Below, in pieces: positions 30,030 to 46,094 of a stretch of 64,000 bases of DNA (position 1 is its first letter; the number at the start of each line of letters is the position of its first letter). The translations under genes were made by a program, and so were the position numbers. This DNA comes from Promethearchaeota archaeon (GTDB lineage Archaea; Asgardarchaeota; Lokiarchaeia; Sigyniarchaeales; SOKP01). The stretch spans positions 832,001 to 896,000 of the forward strand of contig JAHPZA010000006.1 in assembly GCA_019058445.1 (NCBI GenBank). The letters run 5' to 3'. The notes beneath the pieces are model-generated. The model had not been told where the DNA came from. It was given only the letters and a program-made list of their open reading frames with translations, and did no database searches.

Positions 30030-31769
30030 TTATTTTCGTAGTACTTTCTTATCAACCTTGCCTACAGCAGTAAGAGGAATCTCTTCCATGATATGAACTT
30101 TTTTGGGAACCTCGTAAGGAGAACACTTCTCTTTGGCGTAATTTACGATATCTTCTTGTAATTTTTCTTCGTTTCCATCATATTCGAATTCGGGATCAAG
30201 TTGAATGTATGCGTTTACAATTTCAGAACCCGGACGGTCGGGATTAGGTTCTCCAATAAGAGCAATCATCCCTATTGCTGGATGTTCGGCTAAAACGTCC
30301 TCGACTTTACTAGAGAATACTTTAAAACCACCAACAATGATCATATCTTTTGTACGATCCACGATTTTTAAGTATCCATCTTCGCCTATGAGTGCTACAT
30401 CTCCCGTGTGCATATATCCATCCGCATCAATAGCTTTTTTGGTTTCTTCAGGTTTGTTGTAATATCCTTGCATGACTAATGGCCCCTTTACACAGATTTC
30501 TCCTGGTTCTCCTATAGGTACCACCTCTCCTGTGTCTGGATCAATTATTTTTAATTCTACGTTCTGAATAGGCATTCCAATCGTACCTAATTTCTTTTCT
30601 CCTAAGGAAGGATTCATTGTTGAGACCGGAGATGTCTCCGTCATCCCATATAACTCTAATAGCTTGCCTTCCCCTATTATACTCTCTAATTCTACTTGAG
30701 ATTCTTTAGGAAACGGAGACGCGGCTGAGATACACGTTCCTAAGTCGGAATGATCCAAATCTTTAAACTTAGGGTTTTTGATTAGCATTTGATATAAGGA
30801 AGGAACGTTAACTAAATTGGTTGGATGGTATTTCTTCATCTCTTTTACGATATGGTTTGTATCTCTCGGGTTTGGAATTTATACTAGAGAGACGCATGTT
30901 CTCTCAATTAATATTTGCGTCCACCCGAAGTATACGGCACTTTCGGCGACCGTTAATCCGGCTATGTGAAACATAGGGAACCCAGAGCATAAAACACCTT
31001 TTCCAAATTCCCATTGAAGCCACTCTGAAATGCTTAAAATATTAGACGCGACATTTCTATGAGTTAACATAGCTCCTTTTGGCGGACCCGTCGTCCCTCC
31101 AGTATATTGAATCCAACCTATATCGTCTGGAGTTAATTTAACGTCTGGTGGATCAGAAGAGAATTCTCCTTTTAATACATCCTTGTGGAAATCTAGTACA
31201 GTTTTTCCCTCTAAAGGTGTGACTTTTCCCTTTGGTATTTTACCTAAAGCTTTACCAAGCACTTGAATTACTTTTGGCAAGAACGACCCGACACTTGTGG
31301 TAATAATAAGTTTGGTTGAACCTAATTTTGAAGCAATTTTTGTAATGTGCCCCGCAAAAATTGCATCTAATGTCACCAACGCTACTTGTTTTCCCCCTGA
31401 ACCTAGATCGTTTAACTGATATTCGATCTGTAGGGCAGACAGAAGGGGCGAGACACCTGAAATTATGCATCCCGCACGTAGAGCGCCAATTAATGAAACT
31501 ATATACTCAATAGTATTTGGTAAATTGATACCAACGACATCTCCCTTTTTAAAGCCATTTGCGACGAGCATATTTGCAAATTTATTGGCCATTTCGTCTA
31601 ATTCTTTGAATGTTATTTCAACGCCTAAATACGCTAACGCGATTTTATCTGGATAATTCTGAAACGCTTTCTTAATCATGTCAACGTAGGTCGTTTCGAA
31701 TTCTTTAGGATCTAAGTCCTTAACGTGCGGATCCCAATTTTTCTTCCAAAATTTATCACTATACGACAT
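30030..31769 (-). CDS. fadD: Long-chain fatty acid-CoA ligase 1; two exons (31769-30909 and 30878-30030), 569 aa after splicing
   Basis: Exon 1 has YTGGTTGPPKG and PMFHIAG; exon 2 has YGMTET, GEICVKGP, TGD, DRTKDMI, GKVDKK; removing 30879-30908 gives continuous GWTQILIPNPRD. Confidence 0.88.
30879..30908 (-). other. Putative 30-nt BHB-type mRNA intron
   Basis: mRNA: AA[AUAU](UA^A)UUGAGAGA-acaugcg-UCUCUCUA[GUAU](AA^A)UU; 4-bp central helix, two 3-nt bulges; excision restores frame; ends in in-frame UAA. Confidence 0.8.
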
Positions 31770-32104
31770 TTTCGCTAGTAACCTTTTTTTTGTTTTAAAA
31801 TTTTTACATTATTTTCTAATTTTTTAAATAAAGCAATTGTTACTAGTTAATATTGATAAAATCAGTTATAAAGTTTTAATTTTAGAGTCTTCAATTTAGA
31901 TTTGATCAATTTTTCTTTTTTTGTAAATATTGGTTGCTTAAAAAATCAAACAAATCAATTTCTAGCATTATATATGTTAGATTATCATTTGAGTTTGAGT
32001 AATTAAAAAATAGAGTTATAAATATCTTTTAGAGTGTATTAATTTATATAATCTAATTCTTAAGTTAATATTAAGATTAAAAATTTTCTTAGGTTAAACT
32101 AACC

Positions 32105-32671
32105 GTGGTTGAATATTATTGTCATTATTGCAATAAGAATGCAAATGCAAATAAAAAGAACTCGCCAATATGCAAAATTTGCGGGTTTTATATGTCATCG
32201 GGGGCTAAGTTAGATGAGGAAATTTTGAGAATCCAACAAGAGAGGATGGGATATTGTAAAAAGTGCGGGAAAGAGGTGTATAGTGTTCCAATAAAAGTAA
32301 TTAAGGATGTAGTACGACATCGGTTTAATCAAGAAATTCATATTGTCGAGGCTGATCGTAAAAATGTGAAAAGAATGAAGCTTACCGATAGCAAATTCTT
32401 ATACGTAACAATTGTAATGATTCCTGTGTTTATCGTGGTATCAATGATTTTGCTGTGGTTAGGGTTGTTGCTAATCGGAGCGTTTACAGTGGCGTTAATT
32501 TTGGATTATCACAACAAAAGCAAGTTAAAAACAGATTTAGTAGCTATACGAGATAATAAGATTAAGAATTTGACCGAAGAGAAGCAAAAAGCGTTAAATG
32601 AGCTTTCGAAAGCTGAGCAAGATTATAAAAATTTATGTAGTGTGTGCGATGGGGGGGTAAAACCTCGTTAG
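32105..32671 (+). CDS. Zn-ribbon membrane protein
   Basis: CHYC, CKIC, CKKC, CSVC plus a two-TM hairpin. Confidence 0.7.
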   Translation: MVEYYCHYCNKNANANKKNSPICKICGFYMSSGAKLDEEILRIQQERMGYCKKCGKEVYSVPIKVIKDVVRHRFNQEIHIVEADRKNVKRMKLTDSKFLYVTIVMIPVFIVVSMILLWLGLLLIGAFTVALILDYHNKSKLKTDLVAIRDNKIKNLTEEKQKALNELSKAEQDYKNLCSVCDGGVKPR

Positions 32672-32923
32672 GCATTCTTATTTTTCTTTCTAACTTTTTT
32701 TATATTAGGTATGATTTATGAATTTGCGATCTAGTGGTTCACTAAATTTAGCTAAAATAAGGATAAAAATAATTGAAAGATAGTAAAATAAGCAGACCTG
32801 AAAAAAGTTAAAGAAACAAGCAAAAAAATAGTAGGATAATTTCACAAAAAAAAGCGAATAATAAATTAAAATTATAAAATTTTTTTTTAAAAATTTACAG
32901 TCTATTTCTTTAATTAACCATAT

Positions 32924-34063
32924 TCAAGAATTATTAATTTTTACATTCCTTTCTCTTAAAATCTTTATTGAACTATTAAAAGCATTAAAATTTTCTAAAT
33001 TTATCCAAAGTCTTTTTAATGAATAAAAATAGGTAAGCGAATCAGGGAGTTTTCTGAAATTATTAAAACTTATATCTAATTCTTCAAGCGAATTAAGATC
33101 TGATATTGAAGCTGGTAAGTTTAGTAAATTGTTTGATCTTAGACCAAGCTTTTTAATTGACACAAGATTTCCCATAGATTCTGGCAATTCTGTCAAATTG
33201 TTAAAATTCAAGATCAAAGTATGAAGTGTTTTGATATTTCCTATGGAACTAGGAAGATATATGAGATTATTCCTATTTAAAAATAACTCTTTTAACTGAC
33301 CAAAATCACCTATAGTATCTGGAAGAGTCTCTAACTGATTCCATCCGAGATTTAAAGATTCTAGTGAATCTAATTCTATAACAATCTCGGGAAATACTTT
33401 AAATTGATTAGAAAATAAATCTAAAGATCTTAATGAACACAGATTTAAAAAAGTATCTGGTATGACACTTAATTGATTCCTTCCTAGTAAAAGCTCTTTA
33501 AGAGAAGTAAGCGAATCTAATCTATCAATTTTTGCCAAATTATCAATATATCTATTTCGCAAATCTAATCTATTATTTAATACAATTCCATAAATTTTCC
33601 CTTTGAATAATACATAATCTAATCCAATTTCGTCCAGTATTGGTTTTAGCTCTCTTGTAGTAAAATTATTATATATTGGATCTTGGAGTAAATAACTTAC
33701 ATCATCAAGAGAATTATTTCTAATTTTGACTATAATCTCATTTTTAAATGTCTTTCTTGCAATCGTATCTCCTTTATTGGAAAGCTCTTCTAATATAGGA
33801 AATGCTAACTCTGATTGTAATAAATTGATATTATACTTGTTATCGACCCATTTTTTAAGTCTCTGATAAAAATATCTAAAAATTTCAACATTTGTGAGAC
33901 TTTCGATTGAAAATATATCAGAATCTATTAATCTAACTAAATCTTCTATAAAAAGTAAACCTTTAATGAATAAATTTATATTATTGCCTACCAACTTAAG
34001 AGTAATTAAATCATTAACTTTTTTACTTATAATACCATTAGACATAATTGAGTCTGATTTCAA
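32924..34063 (-). CDS. Leucine-rich repeat protein with Lokiarchaeia-type N-terminal domain
   Basis: About eight 23-aa LxxLxLxxNxLxxLP repeats; N-domain shared with 38496-39785. Confidence 0.9.
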   Translation of the reverse strand: MKSDSIMSNGIISKKVNDLITLKLVGNNINLFIKGLLFIEDLVRLIDSDIFSIESLTNVEIFRYFYQRLKKWVDNKYNINLLQSELAFPILEELSNKGDTIARKTFKNEIIVKIRNNSLDDVSYLLQDPIYNNFTTRELKPILDEIGLDYVLFKGKIYGIVLNNRLDLRNRYIDNLAKIDRLDSLTSLKELLLGRNQLSVIPDTFLNLCSLRSLDLFSNQFKVFPEIVIELDSLESLNLGWNQLETLPDTIGDFGQLKELFLNRNNLIYLPSSIGNIKTLHTLILNFNNLTELPESMGNLVSIKKLGLRSNNLLNLPASISDLNSLEELDISFNNFRKLPDSLTYFYSLKRLWINLENFNAFNSSIKILRERNVKINNS

Positions 34064-34129
34064 TAATTACAAATTTATTTTAAGACAATAAAATCAATAT
34101 TAATATTTAACTATTTAGCCCATTTTAGG

Positions 34130-37100
34130 TTATAATAACTCATCATTATAAAAGAAATAATAATCATATTCATGATGCCCGAGATAATGATTTTCTAAGA
34201 AATCACGGATTTTTGTTATAGATCTAGTTCTGAACCTTGACCTTAGAACACCTCTTAAATACCCAATCGCCTTGTCTATGACTTTTGGACCATCCCTGTC
34301 CAAACCAAGTTCTTGCGCTTTATCATCAATGAATCCGAGTTCATCAGCTATTTGAACTAAGCTAAGTGGTTTACCGTTATTATCTCTATAACGTATAAGG
34401 TTTTCTAGAAAAGGCTCTAAATAAATATGTCGCATTTTTGTCAATGGTCGATAGACAATAGCTTTAAGCTTATAAGAAATCCTTGTTATAGGATCTATCT
34501 CATATTTAAATGTATCAAAATATCTATTAAAAAGATGAGAAATATCGTCAGCCTCATAAAAGTCGCCTTTGTTCTCCCCTTCTTGCTTTCTAATACCTAA
34601 GGCCTTTAACCTATCAGCAATCTGATCTCTAGTTAACCCCTCCTTTACAAACTCTAATAAATAAGATCTAATAAAAAGATGTGAAGGATTATAGTTAACA
34701 ATATCAAGGCAAGTAGCGACACATTGCGCAACTATAGTTCTTTTTCCAAGTAATGAATCACCTCTCCCTAGATCATCAAATCTAAAGAAATGATTAGAAA
34801 TTTCTCTATCTGTCTTTCCTTGAGCACGTAGGGATTCTAAAATGGGTTTTATGTATATTTTCATTTGATCTTCATAAGACTTTTCAAACCACTGATAAAC
34901 TCTATTTTGAAGAGTTGTATATGATACTCCTATAATGGCGGCAGCATGTGTTAATGGCACCCCTCGCTTCATTAAAGAAATAACAAGATCTAAATCAATA
35001 TTTTTAAAATTCTCTGAAGGACTATCGATTAAATCCCCCACAATTTTATTATATTCTAAGTTGATATTTAAGTCATAACCTTTTTGATTTATCTTTCTAT
35101 TATAATAAATTGTCCAAAACTCTTCTGATTGCGTACCTTTTAGCGAACCTTCTTGTACATCAAGCAGCTTCATTACAAATACATCATTTGGATTTTTCCC
35201 GGAAGCTATAACCTCCCTCACATCATCATAAAATTTACCATTTCTCCCATGACGAGCTTTAGACAGATATTTAGCCCATCTTTGAGGTGGCGCTTCCTTA
35301 GTCTGACCTATTCGAACAAGCCCAGTTTCTTTATTAATGATAATATAGATATAAACTGGAGTCTTGCCTTTCTTTAAAATTGCATCAAAGATAGCCTTTA
35401 TCTGAGCTTCAGAATTTTTATTCCAAACACTATTCTTTAGGTTAATATTTTTAAATCGATTAGCATACTCGGACTTAATATTTTTAATAAACCATTTATA
35501 GAACTTTTGCGGGGACAGTTTAGATAATTTATCACCTCTTTTTTTTATTATCTCATCCCAAGTTTTATAATCATTTGCATCGATTTTGGAGTTCATCTTT
35601 ATATTAGAGCCGGAATCACCCATCGGACCAACATCAAGTGAAAATTTTATACCCGTCCTTTTAATAGCCTCAATAAGACCATACCTCGCAACAAGATAGT
35701 CCCATATTGAATCCGCTATTTTTAAAGGCAATAAAGGTTTTACAGAATCAGGGATTGCATACGAGTCATCTTTATAATTAAACCAGCGCAGCCTACTCCA
35801 TTTACTTGATTGCTCATCGTGCGCTTCATCCAGCTCGGGATAAGCAGCTAACATATTGGCTGTCATTAAGGTCAGCGCAGAAGCCTCATCTCCCGAAAAT
35901 TCTTCAATAACTTGCTGCACTCGGAATCGACCGATAAGCGCACCAAACGCTTTTTTTACAGGGACTTTATTAGCCCAATACGCAGAAACGGCTCCGGTAG
36001 AGATGGTACCTAAAGACGTAAATGCTGCAATCCCCGCCCCTAACACAGGAACCGCTAACACAGTAATGATTGTGGCTGCCGCTTTGGCAATAGTTCCTTT
36101 TGATGATGATTTGGCATCCTCTCTGGTCTGCTCGTCCTGCTCGGCAGTCTCTTTCATGGTATTACTACCGGTAGCGTCAATCTGTTGTTGGGCGTGCCCA
36201 TCTTGCTTAACATTCTGGGACCCTCCAAAAATACCGAATTTCGTCTCCCGACCTGTGGATACCAGAGTGGTGGCAGCCACTACCATATATTCATCGCCTC
36301 CCCATTGGCGAACAAGCCCGGCGGTCGCATCTTCAATATAGGGGTCGATAAAGACTTCTTCAAACGGCTCTGAAGCCACACTCCATAAAGTTAAGCCTTT
36401 CAGCCCTGCCGCACCGCCGATACCCGCGGTCAAGAGGGTGCTTACCACTGTAATGACGGTGGTATATGCGATTTCATCCAGTTTAGCTTGCGTCTCGGTG
36501 GCAATTTGGAATTGATAATAATATTCTAAAATGGCAGCCTGTACTGCTTGCATAGTGGCAATTTGCTCCATTTCTTCGCTGGTGAAGTTTCCCTTATCAT
36601 TAATGGAACGATATTTTTCGATATGAATTTCAAAAATCATATATGCAGTGATCAAGTGACCATATCGCTCCCAATAATCTTCATCCCAGGATTGTTCAAT
36701 CGCTTCCAATCGTCGATCTACTTTTTCGCAAAACTCTTGATATCTATCCGGGCTTAAGGTGAGCTCTCCAGAAGATGGATCAAATGTATAATCATCACTG
36801 TCCAGCGTTGCCACGAAAACTTTCTTAAAATTATCATTCTCATCATCATCATTGAACGATGACACCAAATACACGTCAATATCCTTAATTCCTTCTTGCA
36901 AAGTATCTTTGGGAACGATCTTCAAATCTTCTCCATCGCTTTTCTCCCAGATTTTATAAATCTTATCGTAAGTATAACTGCCTCCTATGGCTGAAATCTC
37001 ACTATACTCATCGCTAGATACAATGATCGGATAATCTTCATAAAACTCAGGAAGTGGTGAAGTGGGCTCTTCATTGGCAAACAACATAACCGGATAATAA

Positions 37101-38482
37101 TCATGCATGTAAGGAATAACCTTGTTTAAATCCCTATCTTTCTTGGCATCGGTAGTCTCGGCAACTGCCTGTTCTAAAAAGGCAATCGAGTTGTGCGAGT
37201 ATAAAATGGGATCTTGATATTCATAAAAGATATCATCTTCTTGCATATATTGGATTACTCGGGGATCATCAAAATCAGAATAGGCAATATAGCTTCTTGA
37301 TTGCATGCTATAATCCAAGTTCATTTTCTTGTAATTGGTAATAAATGGATCCCACCAATTTTCAGTGTCCCAATCAATCGAATCTAATCCAAGCATATTG
37401 GTCTTCCCTTCGCCCAAGTCTCCGTTCGCAGGAGCTAATACTATTTGCCCCTCATAGGTGTATTTCTCAGTCTCAAATACTACCGGCGCATAAATTCCGT
37501 TGGTAGTGCAAGTAAATGCGGTGGTCATCGTCTCGCCAAACCACTCATCAGACCACCATTTTCTGGACAAGGTTTTCTTTCCCCGATAATGCTCCGAATC
37601 ATGATACGTATAGGCTTTAATGTAATTTTCTTGCTCAGCAACATCCATCCACCCTTTCATGGTAGTGAGCATGGCATATACAGCCGCACCTCCTATAGGA
37701 GAGACATAAGTAGATATAACAGCCGAAATTAAAAGCGATTCAGTTTGCCACATAATATCGGCTTGGATTTGCTCGCAGGACAGGGACTCTAAGAAAGTAT
37801 TAAACGTAATCTCTTCCGCTTCTCTAATAAGTTGAGAGGCTGTACCCTCCCATTGTATCTTCCAGAGGTCATAAAGCGCGTCCGAAAAGGTAGGCTCCAG
37901 ATAATACCCCCCGAAGTCATCTTCGTGGTGGAACCCAATCAGTTCATTGTAAATGAGGTTTTTTACATTGAACACCCCTGCCTCTGTAGAATATCTATTT
38001 CTGCGAACTTGCCTTTGCACGATATGCTTACCGTGAGGGTTAAAATAGGCATCGCTATAATAATCGAATCCAACACCAATCATATCTCCAGAATCATCGG
38101 CAATAAATATTGTCTCGAAAAAGCCGTCACTATCGCCATCGTAATAGTAATAAGCCCCATCCGTCTTAGAAGGGTATTTACCCATATTATTATCGTAGTA
38201 TACCCCATCTTTAGGTGCTACCTTAATTGTATTTAATACAATATTCTCCTCATTTAGTCCGGACCAACTGCTATAACTGCTTGTTAAATCAAAAGTCTTA
38301 TTGGCGGTTAAAATATTTAATGTGGAAAATTCTCCATCAGCAAATTCCATAACCGTTTCATATAAGGCAGGCACATTATCATTATCATGAACCAGCGAAA
38401 GAAGCGGCTCTTTATTGGATATCTCAACCTCTACATCATTATAGCTATCATAATCATCTAAGTCATTGATAATAGTCTGCAC
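34130..38482 (-). CDS. Giant (probably 5'-truncated) polymorphic-toxin-like protein with C-terminal GIY-YIG nuclease and HTH-like domains
   Basis: Acidic N-part with YDGDSDGFFET, Gly/Ala-rich hydrophobic helices, then VYIYIIINKETGLVRIGQT...R and HTH-like segments. Confidence 0.7.
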   Translation of the reverse strand: MQTIINDLDDYDSYNDVEVEISNKEPLLSLVHDNDNVPALYETVMEFADGEFSTLNILTANKTFDLTSSYSSWSGLNEENIVLNTIKVAPKDGVYYDNNMGKYPSKTDGAYYYYDGDSDGFFETIFIADDSGDMIGVGFDYYSDAYFNPHGKHIVQRQVRRNRYSTEAGVFNVKNLIYNELIGFHHEDDFGGYYLEPTFSDALYDLWKIQWEGTASQLIREAEEITFNTFLESLSCEQIQADIMWQTESLLISAVISTYVSPIGGAAVYAMLTTMKGWMDVAEQENYIKAYTYHDSEHYRGKKTLSRKWWSDEWFGETMTTAFTCTTNGIYAPVVFETEKYTYEGQIVLAPANGDLGEGKTNMLGLDSIDWDTENWWDPFITNYKKMNLDYSMQSRSYIAYSDFDDPRVIQYMQEDDIFYEYQDPILYSHNSIAFLEQAVAETTDAKKDRDLNKVIPYMHDYYPVMLFANEEPTSPLPEFYEDYPIIVSSDEYSEISAIGGSYTYDKIYKIWEKSDGEDLKIVPKDTLQEGIKDIDVYLVSSFNDDDENDNFKKVFVATLDSDDYTFDPSSGELTLSPDRYQEFCEKVDRRLEAIEQSWDEDYWERYGHLITAYMIFEIHIEKYRSINDKGNFTSEEMEQIATMQAVQAAILEYYYQFQIATETQAKLDEIAYTTVITVVSTLLTAGIGGAAGLKGLTLWSVASEPFEEVFIDPYIEDATAGLVRQWGGDEYMVVAATTLVSTGRETKFGIFGGSQNVKQDGHAQQQIDATGSNTMKETAEQDEQTREDAKSSSKGTIAKAAATIITVLAVPVLGAGIAAFTSLGTISTGAVSAYWANKVPVKKAFGALIGRFRVQQVIEEFSGDEASALTLMTANMLAAYPELDEAHDEQSSKWSRLRWFNYKDDSYAIPDSVKPLLPLKIADSIWDYLVARYGLIEAIKRTGIKFSLDVGPMGDSGSNIKMNSKIDANDYKTWDEIIKKRGDKLSKLSPQKFYKWFIKNIKSEYANRFKNINLKNSVWNKNSEAQIKAIFDAILKKGKTPVYIYIIINKETGLVRIGQTKEAPPQRWAKYLSKARHGRNGKFYDDVREVIASGKNPNDVFVMKLLDVQEGSLKGTQSEEFWTIYYNRKINQKGYDLNINLEYNKIVGDLIDSPSENFKNIDLDLVISLMKRGVPLTHAAAIIGVSYTTLQNRVYQWFEKSYEDQMKIYIKPILESLRAQGKTDREISNHFFRFDDLGRGDSLLGKRTIVAQCVATCLDIVNYNPSHLFIRSYLLEFVKEGLTRDQIADRLKALGIRKQEGENKGDFYEADDISHLFNRYFDTFKYEIDPITRISYKLKAIVYRPLTKMRHIYLEPFLENLIRYRDNNGKPLSLVQIADELGFIDDKAQELGLDRDGPKVIDKAIGYLRGVLRSRFRTRSITKIRDFLENHYLGHHEYDYYFFYNDELL

Positions 38483-38495
38483 GTAATATTCTGGA

Positions 38496-39785
38496 TTATA
38501 CAGATCTGCAATTTCGTTTGGGAATATCCCATACTCGTATTGTTTTATGTCCTACTGATGCTATTATATTCTGTCCATTTGGGCTAAAATAGATTCGAGT
38601 AAAATCTGTTTTAGTTGACAATGTTTTGTAGATGGTTTTGGATGCAATATCCATGAGTACTACATCTCCTGTTTTTGTGGCAAATACAACATTTTTTCCT
38701 TCAGGAGATACATCAAACGGCACTAAATCATGAAAGGAAGTAAGTTTATCGAATAATTTTCCTGATTTTAAATCCCAAATAAAAAGCGCGCTATACGCAA
38801 TATCACCATCCACTAAACTTGCCAATAAGTAAGTGTTATCCCCCGAGAATTTAAGGCATCTCGCAGATGCGTGAGGAGTTTCACATTGAAAGATCACTTT
38901 TTTTTGGTTTGTATCCCATACGGCTATCCCTCCATTGTAAAATCCTAATCCTAAAAGAGTCCCATCTTGCGAAATTCCGATCTCATCTACTTTATCTTTA
39001 AAAGTATGTAAGTAATGCGCATACCCTCCAGAAAGTGTGTAATAAAATAATTCGTTATTTTCTGTGCCATAATATATCTTCTTTCCATCAGAGCTCACTT
39101 CAAAACCCTCTTCTGAAGCATTTTCTAAGAAGAACTCATCAAATGGTATATATATTTTAGTTTCTAAAGCATCATGCTGCATTTTTTTCAGAATTGTTTT
39201 TGCATGAGTGCTCTTTAGAATATTTTTTATAGCATTTTTAATGAAATTGGGATAATCAATGTGGGAAAAATCCATCTCTTCCAATACACTTTCCATCTCT
39301 TCTGCCGAAAGATATTCTAAATAATCGCATGCTAATAAATAATTCATCACGTTTTCATACCCTACGGCAAACCGCTTGGCAATCTCCTCTTTAAACACTT
39401 TTTTCGCGATGGGATCTCCGACGCTCTGAAGCTTTTTTAGCAAGCTAAACGCTAAATTCCTATGTAATAAATTAGTATTGTAGTTGTGCTCCGCCCACGC
39501 TTGGAGATTCGAACAATGCCCCCAAAATTCCACTCCTGGCTGAATCCCATGGTCGCTCGTTTTTCCGGTCTCAAGTGTACCGTCCAAATTTTCTGAAGCC
39601 TGGTCTATAGAGCTATATTCGTTGACTTTTACAAGATCCTCTGTGGGAATATTCATGAGGAGATATTTGCAATGCCCATAATAGCGCCCTTTAATATATA
39701 TATTGGTCTTTTTATTCTCCAGTTTTAAGGTAATATACTCATTAACCACAAATGGAGAGATATTTTCGGATTCTTTCACACTCAC
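38496..39785 (-). CDS. WD40-repeat protein with Lokiarchaeia-type N-terminal domain (possibly 3'-truncated)
   Basis: EFWGHCSNLQAW...LLHRNLAF...GDPIAKKVFKEEI N-domain; repeats SQDG..L....IAVWD, FSGD...FIWD, SPEG, FSPNG...IRVWD. Confidence 0.8.
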   Translation of the reverse strand: MSVKESENISPFVVNEYITLKLENKKTNIYIKGRYYGHCKYLLMNIPTEDLVKVNEYSSIDQASENLDGTLETGKTSDHGIQPGVEFWGHCSNLQAWAEHNYNTNLLHRNLAFSLLKKLQSVGDPIAKKVFKEEIAKRFAVGYENVMNYLLACDYLEYLSAEEMESVLEEMDFSHIDYPNFIKNAIKNILKSTHAKTILKKMQHDALETKIYIPFDEFFLENASEEGFEVSSDGKKIYYGTENNELFYYTLSGGYAHYLHTFKDKVDEIGISQDGTLLGLGFYNGGIAVWDTNQKKVIFQCETPHASARCLKFSGDNTYLLASLVDGDIAYSALFIWDLKSGKLFDKLTSFHDLVPFDVSPEGKNVVFATKTGDVVLMDIASKTIYKTLSTKTDFTRIYFSPNGQNIIASVGHKTIRVWDIPKRNCRSV

Positions 39786-39981
39786 GGTACATTGCCTTTT
39801 GATACTGAGAAATTAGTCTTGAAAGTTAATATCTACAAAAATATTTAAAGGAAAATTTTTCTGAAAATACTTAATGGATAGGGCATAATGATACTTTTTC
39901 ATTTAAATCATAACAGTCCTCATAGTAAATATTAATAGTATTTTTCATTACTTTATACAGATTTGAGAAAAAAGACAAAAT

Positions 39982-42303
39982 ATGAAGATTTTAGCATGGA
40001 GTGATTGGAGAATCCAATCTTTAGAGACATTAATGGGCATTATACAAAAGGAAAATCCCGACCTACTACTCTATGCGGGAGATGATTTAGATCGATTAAT
40101 TGGTGCAAGCAGTAAGATTTATTTTAAAACGTATAATCATTTTATAGAGGTAGATATAAATAAATTAGATGATCTGTACCAAAATGACTCATTTGCGAAA
40201 AATCCTAAAATTAAGGAAATTATCCTAGAATTTCAAAATAATAATTTAAATCTCATTGAGCAGCTTGATATTCCTTTCATATACGTAAATGGAAATGATG
40301 ATTATATCTTAAAGATTAATGGAGAGAATTATCTTAAAATTTCTAAAAGCTTCAGAATAAATAAGGAATGGTATGATATATGCGAAAATATTGAGGGAAG
40401 AGTAGATTTTATCCCACACGACGAGTATAAGGAGTTAAGTGAAAATATCCCCTATATAAAAAAGGTTTTAAGAGACCAAAAGGAATATAAAATCTTATCA
40501 AGTTCTCCAGAAATTAAAAAATATCTTCACAATGAGGAGGTTTATGAGGTATATAGTATTTATGGGCAAGATGATATTTTTTATGCGATTGAAAAAGGGC
40601 AGAACCACATTGACCCTTTTTTGTGGTATACAAAAGATAATGGAATATATGTGAAAATATCCCCCACCTATGGAAAAACCGAGTTCAATACTCGAAATGA
40701 ATCAATATCCATATTTGGAAGCGGTTGCTCTATTGGAAGGGAAAGTCAAATTATTTTTCCTCCCAACGAATATGCTGATATTTACCTCTCTCATTTACCA
40801 CCATTAGGGAAATTAGATTTATCAAGTAGATTTGGAATCAACCATATTGGCTCAAAAGCACTTTTAGAGGCAATACATACCTATCACCCTAAATTTGTGA
40901 TATGCGGACACTCTCATATGTGGGGCGGAGAAGCAGAACACGTCAATGGCACGGTAGTTGTAAATGTAAGTTCTCATGACAGTCCACGATTTACCACCAC
41001 AGCAAATTACGTTACCATTACTACTAATGATTGGTCTTACCAAATTAAAAAAGAAAGTATGCTCCCAGAAAATACCCTATCTCTCCTGAAAATAAGGGGG
41101 TTTAATACTTTAAGAAAAAAATTGCGCGAAAAAGGAGATATTTACATTCAAAATGAAATATATCATAAATATCATAAAAACTTAGAAGGATTAGTGGGAG
41201 TTAATAGGGAGAGGGGCTTTTATATAGATGTAGGATCTTTAGAGAGAAAGGAGCCTGCAGAACAAATAAAAATACAGAAATTCTTAAAGGAAGAACTCAG
41301 CCTTGATATATCAATATATCGGCAAGAGTATGAGAAAGCTAGTTCATTATACGCCAAATTGTATTTTGCTCGCATTTTTGATGATGCGTTTGAAGTCTTA
41401 AATGAGGTGGAGAATTTTGGAATTTCTACTTTACGAATGAAAGAAAGGATATTAGCCTTGAGTAAAAGAACCCCAAAGGTACAAAAAAGTATCACATTTA
41501 ATCCTTATGATAATTATTTTGTTGATGTTGAAACCGGAAATTTTCAAGCAGATGAACCGGGTAGATTATGGTTGATAGGGATCGCAAGTGGACGCCAGAA
41601 ACAGATTAAACAGTTTGTTTATCCTCAAGAGTTTCCAAAGTTCCTTAAGTATCTGAAAGATAATGCTATTGACACCTTAGTCTCGTGGTCACGATATGAT
41701 CATCAAGTATTGAGACCAATCCTAAAGTCCCACAAAATAAAAATGAAATATTATGATGCCTTACAAAGGACTGCCAATTGTTTAAGTTGGCATACCTATT
41801 CATTACATGATCTTTATAACGCCCTTTTCCCAGATAAGAAGACTCCTCCAGAGCTCATTTCTGGAGAAAGAGCTGGATTGTATGCTGATCATTTATTGAT
41901 TGATAACTCTTCGTGTCCTCACTGCTCAAATAAGAAAGATCAAATCATCGAGGAGATCAAAAAACGAAACAAATTAGATGTATTACAAATGATAGAGATT
42001 TGTGAGCATTTATATAAAGAAGAGATTTATGAGTGTCCCAACTGTGGTTTTACCACCAAATATAAAAAAGGTTTGATACGACATATAAAAAATAAGGTGT
42101 GTAAAAAGGAGGAGCGTGAAGTAAAGAAGAAAAGTCCCCCTCTTCTTTCCATTAATAAAAAGGACATAGAAAATCTGGCACATTTTAATGAATACGGAGT
42201 GTTTGTGTGCAATTGTGGAAAAACATATTTATCGGGCTCGCATAGGTATATCTTAGATCATATCCAATATTGCCCCCAATTTATCTTTAAAGTAAAGAAG
42301 TAG
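39982..42303 (+). CDS. Calcineurin-like metallophosphoesterase fused to RNase H-like (YprB-type) domain and zinc fingers
   Basis: MKILAWSD, YAGDD, VNGNDD, SHLPP, CGHSH; later FVDVETG...LWLIG...YD...D; CPHC, CPNC..H, CNCG..H..C. Confidence 0.75.
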   Translation: MKILAWSDWRIQSLETLMGIIQKENPDLLLYAGDDLDRLIGASSKIYFKTYNHFIEVDINKLDDLYQNDSFAKNPKIKEIILEFQNNNLNLIEQLDIPFIYVNGNDDYILKINGENYLKISKSFRINKEWYDICENIEGRVDFIPHDEYKELSENIPYIKKVLRDQKEYKILSSSPEIKKYLHNEEVYEVYSIYGQDDIFYAIEKGQNHIDPFLWYTKDNGIYVKISPTYGKTEFNTRNESISIFGSGCSIGRESQIIFPPNEYADIYLSHLPPLGKLDLSSRFGINHIGSKALLEAIHTYHPKFVICGHSHMWGGEAEHVNGTVVVNVSSHDSPRFTTTANYVTITTNDWSYQIKKESMLPENTLSLLKIRGFNTLRKKLREKGDIYIQNEIYHKYHKNLEGLVGVNRERGFYIDVGSLERKEPAEQIKIQKFLKEELSLDISIYRQEYEKASSLYAKLYFARIFDDAFEVLNEVENFGISTLRMKERILALSKRTPKVQKSITFNPYDNYFVDVETGNFQADEPGRLWLIGIASGRQKQIKQFVYPQEFPKFLKYLKDNAIDTLVSWSRYDHQVLRPILKSHKIKMKYYDALQRTANCLSWHTYSLHDLYNALFPDKKTPPELISGERAGLYADHLLIDNSSCPHCSNKKDQIIEEIKKRNKLDVLQMIEICEHLYKEEIYECPNCGFTTKYKKGLIRHIKNKVCKKEEREVKKKSPPLLSINKKDIENLAHFNEYGVFVCNCGKTYLSGSHRYILDHIQYCPQFIFKVKK

Positions 42304-42410
42304 TTTTACAGATATCTATCTAAATTTTTATAGACTAGGATAATTTTCGATTTTTTCTTTATAAATAGGCATCAGTAATTTACTCCAAAGAAGAATTTAA
42401 GGTAATGTAA

Positions 42411-42782
42411 ATGGAAAGACAATTTACCCTCGTAACCTATACATTAGTACTTCTGCTCATGATAGGATTAGTAGTTAATTTAGCATTACTTATTGTAATA
42501 TTATTAGTCGATACCTTTTTAGTTTCTGATGCTATTACCGTGTCCGCTATAATCCTAATTACATTATCAATGGTTGGGATTTTCTCTAAGCAAAAATGGG
42601 GTGCCACACTTGCTATTTCTAAATCTATATTTGATATTATACTAAGACTGTGGTTTTTCTCCCTTGGCTATACCGACACATTAATTTTTATACTGCTTAC
42701 CCTCGTCCTTGCAATAAAAGAATATCAGCATATAGATACCTATTGGCAATCGGTTACATCTAAATCTATATCCTATCCCTAA
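42411..42782 (+). CDS. Small four-TM membrane protein
   Basis: Four hydrophobic segments in 123 aa. Confidence 0.65.
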   Translation: MERQFTLVTYTLVLLLMIGLVVNLALLIVILLVDTFLVSDAITVSAIILITLSMVGIFSKQKWGATLAISKSIFDIILRLWFFSLGYTDTLIFILLTLVLAIKEYQHIDTYWQSVTSKSISYP

Positions 42783-42857
42783 GTCCCTTTTTTTTCATAC
42801 TAATCTGAAAATTCATTAATCTACACATATTTAAATTCGAATGTTTCATAATGTATC

Positions 42858-43007
42858 ATGGCAACAAAAGCATCATAACTCCGGTATCACCCTGGATTTT
42901 TGTCTTTTGGTTAGTGTATGGAAATACACTCTGATTTTGCCCTCCTCCCCCTTGTATTGTTTTGACCTCTGTGTGAGGTCCCGATACCAGGAGTTTTTTG
43001 TTGCCAT
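42858..43007 (+). ncRNA. Candidate 150-nt structured non-coding RNA (or MITE-like element)
   Basis: Closing stems of 12+6+6 bp, two internal hairpins (one with a GGAA tetraloop), TTTAAA box ~25 nt upstream, T-tracts downstream. Confidence 0.6.
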
Positions 43008-43131
43008 TTTTTCAGTATTTTTTTTACTACTACTATCTTTTCTGTTAAACTATGATAAAAATCCAAATAACTTTTTATAATAGGAATACTATGGAAAAGT
43101 TTAAGGAATACTAGATGAGGAAAATAGAGCA

Positions 43132-43623
43132 ATGTCCGACCAAAAATCACCTCTTAAATCTATCATTCGCAGCTACATACTTGAGATCGGTGGGCTTTTA
43201 AAAGAAGAATTAAAGGAACCTCGATTTGAATTTGGATTTCGGTTCTTATATCCCAATGAAAGAGGCAGACTTCTGCTTATTGCCCAACCAAAAAATAAAT
43301 CTGTGATTGAAATTTCACAAGGTACCCCCCTCTCTACAGAGCACCGACAAGGATTTATGGCTTTACCTGACAGAGATAAAAAAAATTTCGTGAAGAATTT
43401 ACAAAAAATCTTATTTCGTTTGGAAGTAGATTATTCCTATGAGTTTTCTAAGCATTATACCATCGTGCTTATAGATAAACTATTTTTAGAGAATGATGCC
43501 ATTTCTATTAATGAGTTATTCCGTTCCGTGCGTAAAATATAGTGTAGCACCATGAACATTATATTTTTCATCCAGGAGTTCTTTTCTGAAGAATTCGATC
43601 CTACCACTTTTACTGTAGGATGA
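43132..43623 (+). pseudogene. DUF2299-like protein with in-frame amber codon at 43540-43542
   Basis: Frame continues after TAG as CSTMNIIFFIQEFFSEEFDPTTFTVG to TGA at 43621-43623; family call tentative. Confidence 0.5.
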
Positions 43624-43754
43624 AAAAAAGAATTAAGGAAAGAGAAAGAAATTCATAACCTAAGTTTTCATTATATTTCTATTTTATCATAAATCCAAAT
43701 TGCACACGAGACTCCATATTAATATGCTAAACATTAAAAGGAGATGATCCCCAT

Positions 43755-44021
43755 ATGAGCATAATCCTCAAGCTGAAAATTAAGAGAGCAAAACTCACCG
43801 AGAAATACTTTATATTCGGTTTTAACGATGGATCATTCATAGGATTTCATAATGAGAGTTTGAAGTTAATCGCATACAAACACAATGGAGAGAAATGGGA
43901 ACCAATCCGAAAGGCAGATACCACATTTGATGCTCATATTAACGCCATCATATCATTCCTCGTTGAGAGAGAAGCCCTCAAAAAATTAACCATATATCAA
44001 ACCCTCCTAAGCAGGTGTTAA
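43755..44021 (+). CDS. Small hypothetical protein
   Basis: 88-aa ORF preceded by AGGAGATG SD-like motif. Confidence 0.6.
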   Translation: MSIILKLKIKRAKLTEKYFIFGFNDGSFIGFHNESLKLIAYKHNGEKWEPIRKADTTFDAHINAIISFLVEREALKKLTIYQTLLSRC

Positions 44022-44025
44022 GACC

Positions 44026-44208
44026 ATGTGCGAACTCTTAGAAATGGCAATTCTAAAGGAAGTGGCATTAAACGTATTTGCTCCGTAACTTGAGGCACTC
44101 CAGCAAATGCCCGTGCTTGAAGTCAATGAAATCGAAGAGATTCTCAGGTACGCAGATTATACTGATTACAAGACATTTCAAGATCTCCGTACCTTATTTC
44201 ACTTCTAA
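44026..44208 (+). pseudogene. Small ORF interrupted by in-frame TAA (44086-44088)
   Basis: AGGTG SD; MCELLEMAILKEVALNVFAP*LEALQQMPVLEVNEIEEILRYADYTDYKTFQDLRTLFHF*. Confidence 0.5.
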
Positions 44209-44340
44209 ATTTTTATTTCTATTTTTTTTATTTTCTTTTATTCATTAATATCTTTAATTAAAAAAATAAAAATTAGAATATTAATTAAAAAAAAATGGAA
44301 ATTATATTGATATTTTACGTTATACTATGGAATACTGCTT

Positions 44341-46094
44341 TTATTTTCGTAAAAGTTTCTTGTCAACCTTTCCAACAGCAGTCAATGGGAGCTCTTCTAT
44401 GATTTTAATTTTCTTCGGGACTTCATATGGAGCACATTGCTCCTTTGCAAATACAATGATACTTTCTTTTAACGCCTCTTCATTTCCGTCATATTCATAG
44501 TTAGGGTCTAGCTGAATATAGGCATTTACAATTTCAGAGCCCGGGCGATCGGGATTCGGTTCACCTATTAGTGCCATACTTCCAATCGCAGGATGTTTGG
44601 TTAATGTGTCTTCTACCTTAGATGAGAAAACTTTGAAACCCCCTACAATTATCATATCCTTGGTACGGTCTACAATACGTATATATCCATCCTCATCCAT
44701 CATTCCCACATCACCGCTGTGCATATATCCATCCGCATCAATCGCTTTTTTGGTTTCTTCAGGTTTGTTGTAATAACCCTGCATGACTAATGGACCTTTT
44801 ACGCAAATCTCTCCAGCTTCTCCCAAGGGTACTGCTTTTCCAGTTTCTGGATCAACAATCTTTAAGTCAACATTCTGAATAGGCATTCCAACTGTACCTA
44901 ATTTTCTTTCTCCTTTCGAAGGATTCATTGTTGCAACGGGGGACAGTTCGGTCATTCCGTATAATTCCAATAATTTTCCCTTTCCTACTATACTTTCTAA
45001 TTGTATCTGAGATTCGATGGGGAAAGGAGATGCTGCAGAAATACAGACTTCTAAAGTTGAGTGATCCAACCTTTTGAATTTTTTGAAATTTATTAGAATC
45101 TGATATAGGGAAGGTACATTCACAAGTCCAGAAGGTTTGTACTGTTTAATTTGATTACATATGGACAAAGCGTTTCGTGGGTCCTGCATTAGACGAATCG
45201 TCTTAATTAATCAGGCACGAGACACTGGGTCCAACCCAGATAAATAAAACTCTCACAAACAGTTAAACCTGCAATATGGAAGAAAGGAAAACCTGATAAT
45301 GCTGTTCCCACTCCCCATTCCCAATTAAGCCATGACCGAATAGACATAATGTTAGAAATTGTATTTCTATGGCTTATCATTGCTCCTTTGGGAGGTCCTG
45401 TGGTGCCTCCAGTATATTGAATAAATGCAATATTGTCGGGAGAAATCTCTACATTCGGCGGATCAGTTGGATATTTTGCAAAAACGTCATCATGAATATC
45501 TAATACAGTTTTTCCCTCTAAAGGTGTGACTTCTCCCGAAGGAATTTCCTGAACAGCTTTAATTTTTTCCTGTTGTTCTTTTGGAAAGATCCCAATAACG
45601 CTGGTGGTTAAGACAAGTTTTAATTGAGGGCATTTCGAAGCGATTTTAACCAATCTTCCCGCAAAAATTGCATCTAAAGTTATCAATGCAACATTTTTTC
45701 CACCCTCTCCTAAGTCGTTTATTTGGTATTGCATTTGAATCTCCGACATGAGAGGAGAAACTCCTGAAAGGATACATCCTGCTCTCAATATACCTACGAG
45801 GGCAATAACATATTCTGGAATATTAGGTAAATTTACTGCTACAACATCCCCTTTTTTAAATCCATGGTCAATTAATGCATTTGCTAACGAATTTGCGTAT
45901 TTATCCAGCTGCCCATATGTAACTTCTAAACCTTGAAATGCTAAAGCAACTTTATCGGGAACTTCTTTAAATGTCCGTTCTATTCCTTTTACATATGTGG
46001 TGTCGAATTCCTTTGGATCGATATCGTGAACATCAGAATCCCAATTTTTTTTCCAAAAACGGCTAGCATAAATTTCTTCTGCCATATTTATCAC
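44341..46094 (-). CDS. fadD: Long-chain fatty acid-CoA ligase 2; two exons (46094-45210 and 45180-44341), ~574 aa after splicing
   Basis: Same motifs as ligase 1; removing 45181-45209 gives continuous GWTQCLVPDPRNA. Confidence 0.88.
45181..45209 (-). other. Putative 29-nt BHB-type mRNA intron
   Basis: mRNA: UCGUG[CCUG](AU^U)AAUUAAGACG-auu-CGUCUAAUG[CAGG](AC^C)CACGA; perfect 5-bp outer and 4-bp central helices; excision repairs both stop and frameshift. Confidence 0.85.

What the first reader, a model, noticed from the sequence alone, without database searches (positions are those of the whole stretch)
45165..45225. Intron 2: 29-nt frameshifting insert with near-canonical BHB
The minus strand reads CTC GTG CCT GAT | TAATTAAGACGATTCGTCTAATGCAGGAC | CCA CGA AAC. 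The outer helix UCGUG/CACGA (5 bp) and the central helix CCUG/CAGG (4 bp) are perfect, and the bulges are AUU and ACC. The inner hairpin is AUU/AAU plus AGACG/CGUCU after one A-G mismatch. Because 29 is not a multiple of 3, readthrough cannot rescue the gene; BHB-rule excision does. The intron starts with an in-frame UAA.
Basis: partly seen in the sequence, partly recalled or inferred. Interest (0 to 1): 0.88.

Follow-up and report, generated by a model that had tools for sequence, protein, structure and literature searches.

The report
tRNA-type intron in Asgard ligase gene
A 29-base insert that breaks an acyl-CoA ligase gene of an Asgard archaeon has the shape, cut sites and evolutionary conservation of an intron removed by the tRNA-splicing enzyme. 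The papers I could search document such splicing inside a coding sequence for only one archaeal gene, cbf5.

Summary
Window 45181-45209 (minus strand) is a 29-nt insert that starts with an in-frame UAA and shifts the frame of an AMP-binding acyl-CoA ligase gene. With its exon flanks it forms a canonical helix-bulge-helix-bulge-helix motif: 5-bp outer helix, 4-bp central helix, two 3-nt bulges and an inner hairpin. Cutting after the second base of each bulge gives an intact 574-aa protein (LVPD|PRN).

The same site carries a related 29-nt intron in a contig that is 84% identical, and a diverged 30-nt one in a 69%-identical sister gene, with compensatory pair changes. The intron differs at 2 of 29 sites where synonymous sites differ at 41-60%. 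The half downstream of the frameshift has dN/dS of about 0.045. Same-genus orthologues lack the insert exactly.

EndA and RtcB are encoded. Seven more such introns were verified in five other genes of this genome.

Direct RNA proof is missing. One metatranscriptome contig lacks exactly these 29 nt, but it comes from a 90%-identical relative.

Earlier notes of this scan report the same kind of intron in other Asgard genomes.

Verdict: a very probable EndA/RtcB-spliced mRNA intron, a new member of the kind known from cbf5.

The parts
45210..46094 (-). Exon 1 of the acyl-CoA ligase gene (295 codons, ends ...CLVPD)
   Evidence: ORF list and translation. Pfam AMP-binding profile positions 2-238 of 384, E 1.5e-47.
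45181..45209 (-). 29-nt BHB intron, phase 0, starting with an in-frame UAA. It contains an ATG that is in frame with exon 2.
   Evidence: An identical copy is in a DNA contig from a second sample (X2). A homologous copy with 27/29 identity is in L052.
44341..45180 (-). Exon 2 (279 codons plus stop; starts PRNALSICNQ...)
   Evidence: Pfam AMP-binding positions 248-384 and AMP-binding_C. dN 0.055 and dS 1.23 against the intron-bearing relative L052.
45216..45220 (-). Outer helix h, 5' strand (UCGUG, in exon 1)
   Evidence: Pairs with 45175-45179 in five Watson-Crick pairs. It is built from the rare codons CTC (6.7% of Leu) and GTG (14.7% of Val).
45212..45215 (-). Central 4-bp helix H, 5' strand (CCUG, in exon 1)
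   Evidence: Pairs with 45183-45186. The helix is 100% paired in all three lineages, with one change on both sides (U:A to G:U).
45209..45211 (-). 5' bulge AU|U. The predicted cut lies between 45210 and 45209.
   Evidence: The cut after the second bulge base gives the exact frame-restoring junction.
45187..45208 (-). Inner hairpin h' (22 nt, loop AUU)
   Evidence: L032 has a different sequence that still forms a hairpin (A:U to U:A and U:A to A:U swaps).
45183..45186 (-). Central helix H, 3' strand (CAGG, in the intron)
45180..45182 (-). 3' bulge AC|C. The predicted cut lies between 45181 and 45180.
45175..45179 (-). Outer helix h, 3' strand (CACGA, in exon 2)
   Evidence: It uses CGA (16% of Arg), whereas intron-less orthologues have AGA.
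30879..30908 (-). Companion: an unrelated 30-nt BHB-type intron in the paralogous ligase gene (30030-31769), 9 nt upstream of the homologous position
   Evidence: A variant copy occurs in two other samples (L034, L035). Same-genus paralogues lack it.

Best explanation
Window 45181-45209 (minus strand) is an archaeal bulge-helix-bulge intron inside the coding sequence of an AMP-binding (FadD-like) acyl-CoA ligase mRNA.

Proposed mechanism:
1. In the transcript, exon 1 bases pair with exon 2 bases (outer helix) and with the 3' end of the intron (central 4-bp helix). This presents two 3-nt bulges on opposite strands.
2. The splicing endonuclease EndA cuts after the second base of each bulge (GAU|U and AC|C).
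3. The RtcB ligase joins GAU to CCA.
4. The ribosome can then read LVPD-PRN and make the 574-aa enzyme.

Unspliced mRNA stops at the UAA that opens the intron, so splicing is obligatory and could also gate expression.

Shown here: the motif, the exact frame restoration, conservation and covariation, selection on both halves and on the intron itself, and the presence of both enzymes and of sister introns in the genome. Inferred: the cleavage and ligation themselves.
For: 1. Geometry. The motif is a canonical h-H-B-h' layout with nine Watson-Crick pairs flanking two 3-nt bulges. It is the top-ranked BHB at exactly the frame-restoring boundaries. It is one of 22 motifs this strong in the genome and the only one that fuses ORFs.

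2. Product. The spliced product is an uninterrupted 574-aa AMP-binding enzyme. It is collinear with 30 intron-less homologues.

3. Real DNA. An identical insert is present in a contig from a second sample (X2).

4. Conservation.
- L052 (84% nt identity) has a 29-nt intron at the same site with 27/29 identical bases.
- L032/L033 (69% aa identity) has a 30-nt intron at the same site with a different inner sequence but the same architecture. This gene is sister to the G000 clade with 99/98 support.
- The central helix is paired in all three lineages. There are two changes on both sides in the counted pairs, and 91% of cells are paired against 12-46% when the partner is slid. A further U:A to A:U swap is visible in the sequences.

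5. Selection.
- The intron differs at 2 of 29 sites, while synonymous sites differ at 41-60% (binomial P about 5e-5).
- The half downstream of the frameshift has dN 0.055 and dS 1.23 between the two intron-bearing lineages.

6. Exon flanks. The flanks use rare codons (CTC, GTG, CGA; in L032 also CCG and CGC) that build the helices. Intron-less orthologues have CTT GTA CCA GAC CCT AGA, which cannot pair.

7. Machinery. EndA (202-aa ORF, 68 bits) and RtcB (574 bits) are encoded.

8. Same build elsewhere in this genome, each restoring a conserved stretch under the same cut rule.
- acs has three introns (TADIGWITGHSY, GEPINPEAW, DTYWQTETGG).
- The spliced EF-2 paralogue aligns without a gap to EF-2.
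- A CODH/prismane gene has profile positions 457|458 contiguous across the break.
- A ChlD-type chelatase gene also carries one.
- The paralogous ligase also carries one.
- tRNA genes of the genome carry introns of the same size and shape, including one at the canonical 37/38 site.

9. RNA. A 1223-nt metatranscriptome contig (X10, depth 14) lacks exactly these 29 nt.
Against: - There is no RNA from this organism. The X10 RNA contig is only about 90% identical, and intron-less orthologues exist (G002, G008, L054), so it may simply be an intron-less gene.
- Covariation rests on three lineages, and 49 of 500 shuffles reach the observed score.
- In L052 the outer helix shrinks to 2 bp.
- In G000 the MFE pairs the 5' bulge, and the BHB form is 0.6 kcal/mol less stable.
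- BHB-like shapes are common by chance in this 31% GC genome. Relaxed structural scans were not enriched over frame-shifted controls, so structure alone would not carry the claim.
Confidence: 0.85

Rival explanations
1. Translational bypassing (ribosome hopping, as in phage T4 gene 60 or the yeast mitochondrial byp elements). Peptidyl-tRNA-Asp takes off at GAU, skips the gap and lands on the matching GAC just before CCA. This gives the same LVPD-PRN protein without any RNA processing.
For: From the sequence: the take-off codon GAU is followed at once by UAA and a hairpin. A synonymous Asp codon (GAC in G000 and L052, GAU in L032) ends the insert. These are the hallmarks of gene-60-type bypass as I know them (own knowledge). 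The protein product would be identical to the spliced one.
Against: - Bypass does not need the exon 1-exon 2 outer helix, the 4-bp central helix or the 3-nt bulges, all of which are conserved or compensated.
- The matched GA(U/C) follows from the near-palindromic central helix plus bulge.
- The EF-2 paralogue intron of the same build has no matching landing codon (it ends UAG). It aligns without a gap to EF-2 only under the BHB rule.
- I found no report of bypassing in archaea in the papers searched.
Confidence: 0.04
2. A genuinely split gene. The N-terminal 295-aa and C-terminal 282-aa halves are translated separately, the second from the intronic ATG (MQDPRN...), and they assemble into an active enzyme.
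For: An in-frame ATG lies inside the insert in G000 and L052, and gene callers predict a 282-aa ORF from it. Both halves are under purifying selection.
Against: - The L032 intron has no ATG, GTG or TTG in frame between its stop and exon 2. Even so, the next 19 codons are conserved at protein level, with mostly synonymous differences.
- The break lies inside the large N-terminal domain (profile 238/248 of 384), not at the hinge between the N and C domains.
- This reading does not explain the conservation of the BHB geometry or of the insert itself.
Confidence: 0.04
3. A disabled gene or an artefact: a recent 29-nt insertion or assembly error that inactivated one of many AMP-binding paralogues.
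For: - The genome has about 25 AMP-binding paralogues, so loss of one would be tolerable.
- Same-genus orthologues lack the insert.
- A low-coverage contig (L036) carries a 144-nt deletion spanning the site.
Against: - The insert is present in an independent sample and, as homologues, in two other studies' assemblies.
- dN/dS is about 0.045 downstream of the frameshift across dS above 1.
- There are no other lesions in any copy.
- The insert evolves far more slowly than synonymous sites.
- The insert is not a repeat in the genome.
Confidence: 0.03

Closest known systems
BHB intron in the cbf5 pre-mRNA of Crenarchaeota (Watanabe 2002; Yoshinari 2006; Yokobori 2009, PMC2738675)
   Same: Both are short introns inside a coding sequence, recognised through a bulge-helix-bulge motif and removed by the tRNA splicing endonuclease and ligase. 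Both must be spliced to make a functional protein. Both show a patchy distribution explained by one ancestral gain and precise secondary losses, for which reverse transcription of spliced mRNA was proposed.
   Different: This one is in a different phylum (Asgard, not Crenarchaeota) and a different gene class (a metabolic acyl-CoA ligase with many paralogues, not an RNA-modification enzyme). It is one of at least eight such introns in six genes of one genome. Presence or absence varies between species of one genus. Splicing is not yet shown by RNA here.
Archaeal tRNA and rRNA BHB introns (Marck and Grosjean 2003; own knowledge)
   Same: The hBHBh' geometry and cut rule are identical. tRNA genes of this genome carry introns of the same size (20-36 nt) and build, including a canonical 37/38 intron that the same scoring rule finds.
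   Different: The host RNA is an mRNA. The helices are made from codons, so synonymous sites are recruited to keep the structure.
BHB element in the 5' UTR of Haloferax volcanii HVO_1309 mRNA (Schwarz 2020, PMC7714728)
   Same: It is an mRNA substrate of the archaeal splicing endonuclease, confirmed in vivo and in vitro. That paper states cbf5 was the only other known mRNA case.
   Different: That element lies in an untranslated leader, whereas this one interrupts and frameshifts the reading frame.
HAC1/XBP1 unconventional mRNA splicing in eukaryotes (IRE1 cut, RtcB or Trl1 ligation; own knowledge; XBP1-RtcB link mentioned in PMC8718801)
   Same: Both involve spliceosome-independent removal of a short frameshifting intron from an mRNA by an endonuclease that cuts stem-loops, followed by tRNA-ligase joining. 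In both, splicing changes the protein made.
   Different: The nuclease is different (IRE1, not EndA/TSEN) and so is the motif (twin 7-nt loops, not BHB). That system is regulated by stress, and no regulation is shown here.
Translational bypass elements (T4 gene 60, Magnusiomyces byps; own knowledge)
   Same: Both are short non-coding gaps with a stop after the take-off codon, a hairpin and a matching landing codon.
   Different: Bypass has no requirement for exon-exon pairing or 3-nt bulges, and it is not known in archaea. Sister introns of this genome lack matched codons.

Membership tests
Archaeal BHB intron (EndA-cut, RtcB-joined) | hBHBh' geometry: a 4-bp central helix flanked by two 3-nt bulges on opposite strands, with outer and inner helices | tested here: met
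   Five outer and four central Watson-Crick pairs, bulges AUU and ACC, plus an inner hairpin. The same geometry holds in L052 and L032.
Archaeal BHB intron (EndA-cut, RtcB-joined) | Cuts after the second base of each bulge yield a functional mature RNA | tested here: met
   The GAU|CCA junction gives a 574-aa ORF collinear with intron-less homologues. The same rule restores conserved motifs in seven other introns of the genome.
Archaeal BHB intron (EndA-cut, RtcB-joined) | The host encodes the splicing endonuclease and the 3'-phosphate RNA ligase | tested here: met
   PF01974 match of 68 bits in a 202-aa ORF. RtcB PF01139 match of 574 bits. The subunit type, (alpha-beta)2 as reported for Asgard in PMC5829648, was not determined here.
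Archaeal BHB intron (EndA-cut, RtcB-joined) | The structure is conserved through sequence change (covariation) | tested here: met
   Three lineages. The central helix is 100% paired, with two pairs changed on both sides, and 91% of cells are paired against 12-46% for slid partners. The sample is small: 49 of 500 shuffles reach the score.
Archaeal BHB intron (EndA-cut, RtcB-joined) | A spliced junction is present in RNA while the DNA of the same organism holds the intron | tested here: inconclusive
   The X10 metatranscriptome contig lacks exactly 45181-45209 but is about 90% identical, and no DNA of that sample was laid. L054 shows the GAT|CCA junction, but whether its sample is DNA or RNA is unknown.
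Archaeal BHB intron (EndA-cut, RtcB-joined) | Cleavage products carry 2',3'-cyclic phosphate and 5'-OH ends; a circular intron is formed | not testable with these tools
   This needs biochemistry or circRNA-seq.
AMP-binding (ANL) acyl-CoA synthetase | A contiguous PF00501 domain plus the PF13193 C-terminal domain | tested here: met
   Exon 1 covers profile positions 2-238 and exon 2 covers 248-384, plus AMP-binding_C. The TGGTTGPPKG, YGMTE and C-terminal GKVDKK motifs are visible in the spliced product.
Translational bypass element (gene 60 type) | Matched take-off and landing codons at the ends of the gap | tested here: inconclusive
   Met for this intron (GAU/GAC; GAU/GAU in L032). Not met for the EF-2 paralogue intron of the same build.

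The most novel reading that the evidence does not exclude
This genome, and by earlier notes of this scan many Asgard genomes, runs a routine mRNA-splicing layer based on the tRNA endonuclease. Dozens of roughly 30-nt BHB micro-introns sit in ordinary metabolic and translation genes.

They are gained and precisely lost between species of one genus. The intron-less L054 shows the exact GAU|CCA junction expected of loss through a spliced-RNA copy. They are held in place by selection on synonymous sites.

Two paralogous ligase genes carry unrelated introns 9 nt apart at the same structural spot. This hints at either a preferred insertion context or a splicing-controlled switch on fatty-acid activation. 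If so, the closest archaeal relatives of eukaryotes already had interrupted protein genes and obligatory mRNA splicing of a non-spliceosomal kind.
Probability: 0.6. Interest if true: 0.88.

Novelty: new member of a known kind. Interest (0 to 1): 0.75.

Why it matters
The papers I could search document endonuclease-dependent splicing of an archaeal coding sequence for one gene family only, cbf5 in Crenarchaeota, plus one 5' UTR element in Haloferax.

Here a canonical example sits in a metabolic gene of an Asgard archaeon. It has homologues in other lineages, clear purifying selection and several sister introns in the same genome.

This has three consequences:
- Gene callers split or truncate such genes, so Asgard proteomes and metabolic reconstructions are systematically wrong at these loci.
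- Intron gain, loss and structural constraint on codons become tractable to study within one genus.
- It bears on how interrupted genes and mRNA splicing looked in the lineage that gave rise to eukaryotes.

Tried and rejected
1. Structure-only census of the genome. Relaxed BHB scans combined with an ORF-fusion filter gave as many hits as frame-shifted controls: 733 against 660-734, 1553 against 1463-1558, and 212 against 232-252. Adjacent genes and AT-rich pairing swamp the signal. Only the strict scan and motif-by-motif checks were usable, so I give no genome-wide count.

2. Exact-pattern scans of the JGI metagenome contigs and the GTDB species genomes returned nothing. I tried both the exon-flank-plus-gap pattern and the conserved intron core.

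3. Read laying: runs X4 and X5 (marsh and mangrove DNA) had no contig across the intron. The part without cover says nothing.

4. P0030 is a 458-aa, 91-93% identical protein that reads through the junction. Its contig DNA could not be fetched.

5. Comparing L032 with L033 to measure selection across the intron failed. The two contigs are identical over the central 658 nt and differ only in the flanks.

6. In-frame stops reported inside two other AMP-binding paralogues (C6:220650 and C10:295477) are just the natural gene ends.

7. ARAGORN intron calls for the tRNAs are unreliable here because the genes carry several introns at non-canonical positions.

8. Rfam and ARAGORN find nothing in the window itself.

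Full report
**The observation**

The window is G000:C6:832001-896000 of a 4.6-Mb, 10-contig, 31% GC archaeal genome. On the minus strand two ORFs, 45207-46094 and 44341-45189, are the two halves of one AMP-binding acyl-CoA ligase. Their Pfam PF00501 positions are 2-238 and 248-384, followed by AMP-binding_C.

Between them lie 29 nt (45181-45209) that start with an in-frame TAA and shift the frame. Removing exactly these 29 nt gives a 1725-nt frame of 574 codons with no internal stop. It reads ...GWTQCLVPD|PRNALSICNQ....

- outer helix UCGUG/CACGA
- central helix CCUG/CAGG
- bulges AUU and ACC
- a 22-nt inner hairpin

**Is it more than chance?**

A scan of both strands of the whole genome, with intron lengths 12-150, found 22 motifs with central and outer helices this strong. 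This one is the only one whose removal fuses two long ORFs. A local scan ranks the frame-restoring boundaries first, with score 32 against 24 for the next. The 71-nt region folds with z = -3.2. The exact BHB conformation is 0.6 kcal/mol above the MFE.

Looser structural scans were not enriched over frame-shifted controls. Shape alone would therefore be weak evidence in this AT-rich genome. The weight comes from the comparisons below.

**The insert is real DNA and is not a repeat**

A contig from a second sample of the same study covers 45118-45377 with no difference (X2). The 29 nt occur once in the genome.

**Comparative evidence**

In 40 related genomes every homologue that spans the site is contiguous there. 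This includes the same-genus orthologues of G002 and G008, at 83% nt and about 90% aa identity.

Searching the protein collection with each half alone recovered other split forms.
- L052 (ENA ERZ26661968, 84% nt identity) has a 29-nt intron at the same phase-0 site with 27/29 identical bases.
- L032 and L033 (ENA ERZ23498405 and ERZ23498458, 69% aa identity) have a 30-nt insert at the same site. It has an in-frame TAG, a different inner sequence and the same architecture: CCGG/CUGG central helix, bulges AUU and AUC, CGUG/CACG outer helix and a 5-bp inner stem.

In a maximum-likelihood tree the L032 split gene is sister (99/98 support) to the clade of G000 plus the two intron-less same-genus orthologues. 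One gain with later precise loss explains the pattern as economically as independent gains at the same nucleotide. This is the history inferred for the cbf5 intron (PMC2738675).

**Structure is conserved, not sequence**

Across the three lineages:
- The central helix is always paired, with one pair changed on both sides (U:A to G:U).
- An inner pair swaps A:U to U:A.
- 91% of cells pair, against 12-46% when the 3' partners are slid by 1-3 columns.
- A further U:A to A:U swap is visible in the sequences, but a 1-nt indel kept it out of the count.

With three sequences the shuffle control is weak: 49 of 500 shuffles reach the observed score. In L052 the outer helix is reduced to 2 bp next to the bulge, with more distal pairing, and there the BHB form is itself the MFE.

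**Selection**

Between G000 and L052, both of which bear the intron, the half downstream of the frameshift has dN 0.055 and dS 1.23. The upstream half has dN 0.064 and dS 0.60. The downstream frame has therefore been translated throughout a divergence that saturates synonymous sites.

Over the same divergence the intron changed at 2 of 29 positions, where synonymous sites differ at 41-60%. The binomial P is about 5e-5. The insert itself is under constraint.

The exon bases that form the helices use rare codons: CTC is 6.7% of Leu, GTG 14.7% of Val and CGA 16% of Arg. In L032 the flanks also use CCG (9.4%) and CGC (5.3%). The intron-less orthologues read CTT GTA CCA GAC CCT AGA, which cannot form the outer helix.

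**Machinery and sister introns**

The genome encodes a splicing endonuclease subunit (PF01974, 68 bits, 202-aa ORF) and RtcB (574 bits).

Following leads from earlier notes of this scan, I checked other genes of the same genome with the same cut rule.
- The paralogous ligase gene in this window has a 30-nt intron at 30879-30908. A variant copy occurs in two other samples.
- acs has three introns of 32, 30 and 30 nt. Their removal restores TADIGWITGHSY, GEPINPEAW and DTYWQTETGG.
- An EF-2 paralogue has a 30-nt intron. After removal it aligns without a gap to the genome's other EF-2.
- A CODH/prismane-family gene has a 32-nt intron, and its two parts match profile positions 3-457 and 458-512.
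- A ChlD-type chelatase gene has a 30-nt intron inside MNPEEGELRPQ.

tRNA genes of the genome carry BHB introns of the same size and build. One is at the canonical 37/38 position and serves as a positive control for the rule used.

**RNA evidence**

A metatranscriptome run (X10) contains a 1223-nt contig at depth 14 that lies on 44862-45700 and lacks exactly the 29 nt. From their lengths, this contig and a neighbouring one would end within about 35 nt of the start and stop codons, as an mRNA would (inference).

That contig differs from G000 at about 9.5% of positions. It therefore comes from a relative whose DNA I could not examine, and intron-less genes exist in the group. I count it as compatible with splicing, not as proof.

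L054 (JGI 3300037245) is 95% identical to the intron-bearing L052 over the shared part. It lacks the intron and has precisely the BHB-predicted junction GAT|CCA, whereas the same-genus orthologues have GAC there. It is either a spliced transcript or a precise loss of the kind expected from recombination with a spliced-RNA copy. I could not learn the sample type.

**Rivals**

*Translational bypass.* It deserves mention because GAU is followed by UAA and a hairpin, and a synonymous Asp codon ends the insert. It does not explain the conserved exon-exon and exon-intron helices. It also fails for the EF-2 intron, which has no matching landing codon.

*Separate translation of two halves from the intronic ATG.* The L032 intron has no in-frame start, although the next 19 codons are conserved with mostly synonymous differences. 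The break also lies in mid-domain.

*Pseudogene or artefact.* This is excluded by the independent samples and by the selection figures.

**Comparison with what is known**

Full-text searches found BHB splicing of an archaeal coding sequence only for cbf5 of Crenarchaeota, and one 5' UTR element in Haloferax. The 2020 Haloferax paper says so explicitly. A 2026 preprint on Asgard tRNA introns does not treat mRNAs.

Mechanistically this is the same kind of element as the cbf5 intron. What is new is the lineage (Asgard), the gene class, the multiplicity within one genome, and the presence/absence variation within a genus. Earlier notes of this scan report the same kind of intron in other Asgard genomes, some with RNA support. 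I did not test those.

**Verdict**

I estimate a probability of about 0.85 that this is an EndA/RtcB-spliced mRNA intron. It is a new member of a known kind. The missing piece is a junction read from an organism whose DNA is shown to hold the intron.

Noticed in passing
window 30879-30908 (minus strand), gene 30030-31769: The paralogous ligase gene (67% aa identity) carries an unrelated 30-nt BHB-type intron 9 nt upstream of the homologous position (QIL|IPNPRD). Its central helix is AUAU/GUAU and its outer helix is weak. A variant with three substitutions occurs in JGI 3300056903 and Logan SRR35816623 (L034, L035). The same-genus paralogues of G002 and G008 lack it. Why two paralogues have independent introns at nearly the same spot is unexplained.
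   Followed up: partly
G000:C10:621084-623089 (minus strand; L055, L056): The acetyl-CoA synthetase gene is interrupted by at least three BHB-type introns: 622214-622245 (32 nt), 621871-621900 (30 nt) and 621764-621793 (30 nt). Two of them have only 3 of 4 central pairs.
   Followed up: partly
G000:C10:684116-684145 (minus strand; L038): An EF-2 paralogue has a 30-nt BHB intron with an in-frame TAG inside the switch I region (MTD|SDDEEQERGITI). It has a perfect 9-bp inner stem. The second EF-2 copy, at C9:663619-665790, is uninterrupted.
   Followed up: yes
G000:C6:396802-396833 (L059 303-334) and G000:C9:269043-269072 (L058 1744-1773): There is a 32-nt BHB intron in a CODH/prismane-family gene; Pfam positions 457|458 are contiguous across it and the outer helix has 5 bp. 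There is also a 30-nt intron in a ChlD-type chelatase gene inside MNPEEGELRPQ.
   Followed up: yes
window 31770-44340: In relatives (G002 C119, G008 C41, L032) the two ligase paralogues are adjacent in tandem. In this genome about 12.5 kb lies between them, including the giant ORF and the nuclease-like genes flagged by other notes. This looks like an inserted island.
   Followed up: no
L036 (ENA ERZ25073472, coverage 2.3x), aligned to window 45134-45277: An 89%-identical contig lacks 144 nt spanning the intron plus 115 nt of exon, which leaves a frameshift. It is either a defective allele or a low-coverage misassembly at a CCTTC repeat.
   Followed up: partly
L032 compared with L033: Two contigs from sister samples are identical over the central 658 nt, including the intron. 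All 59 mismatches fall in the flanks (95% identity over the 1174-nt alignment). This suggests recombination between strains or a chimeric assembly.
   Followed up: no
whole genome (G000): ARAGORN finds only 23 tRNA genes, 19 of them with an 'intron'. BHB scoring shows strong 20-36-nt introns at several non-canonical positions. The tRNA genes are therefore heavily interrupted and mostly invisible to standard finders.
   Followed up: partly
G000:C3:61327-63249 (minus strand): Another AMP-binding paralogue matches in two pieces in the same frame, with roughly 440 extra nt between query residues 248 and 270. This may be a larger insertion or an extra domain.
   Followed up: no
P0064, P0058, P0059, P0024, P0079 (metagenomic homologues): Several related ligase ORFs from other samples end in a few out-of-frame residues at other conserved spots, for example after LLEVY and after FHIAG. 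These could be further intron positions or sequencing errors.
   Followed up: no
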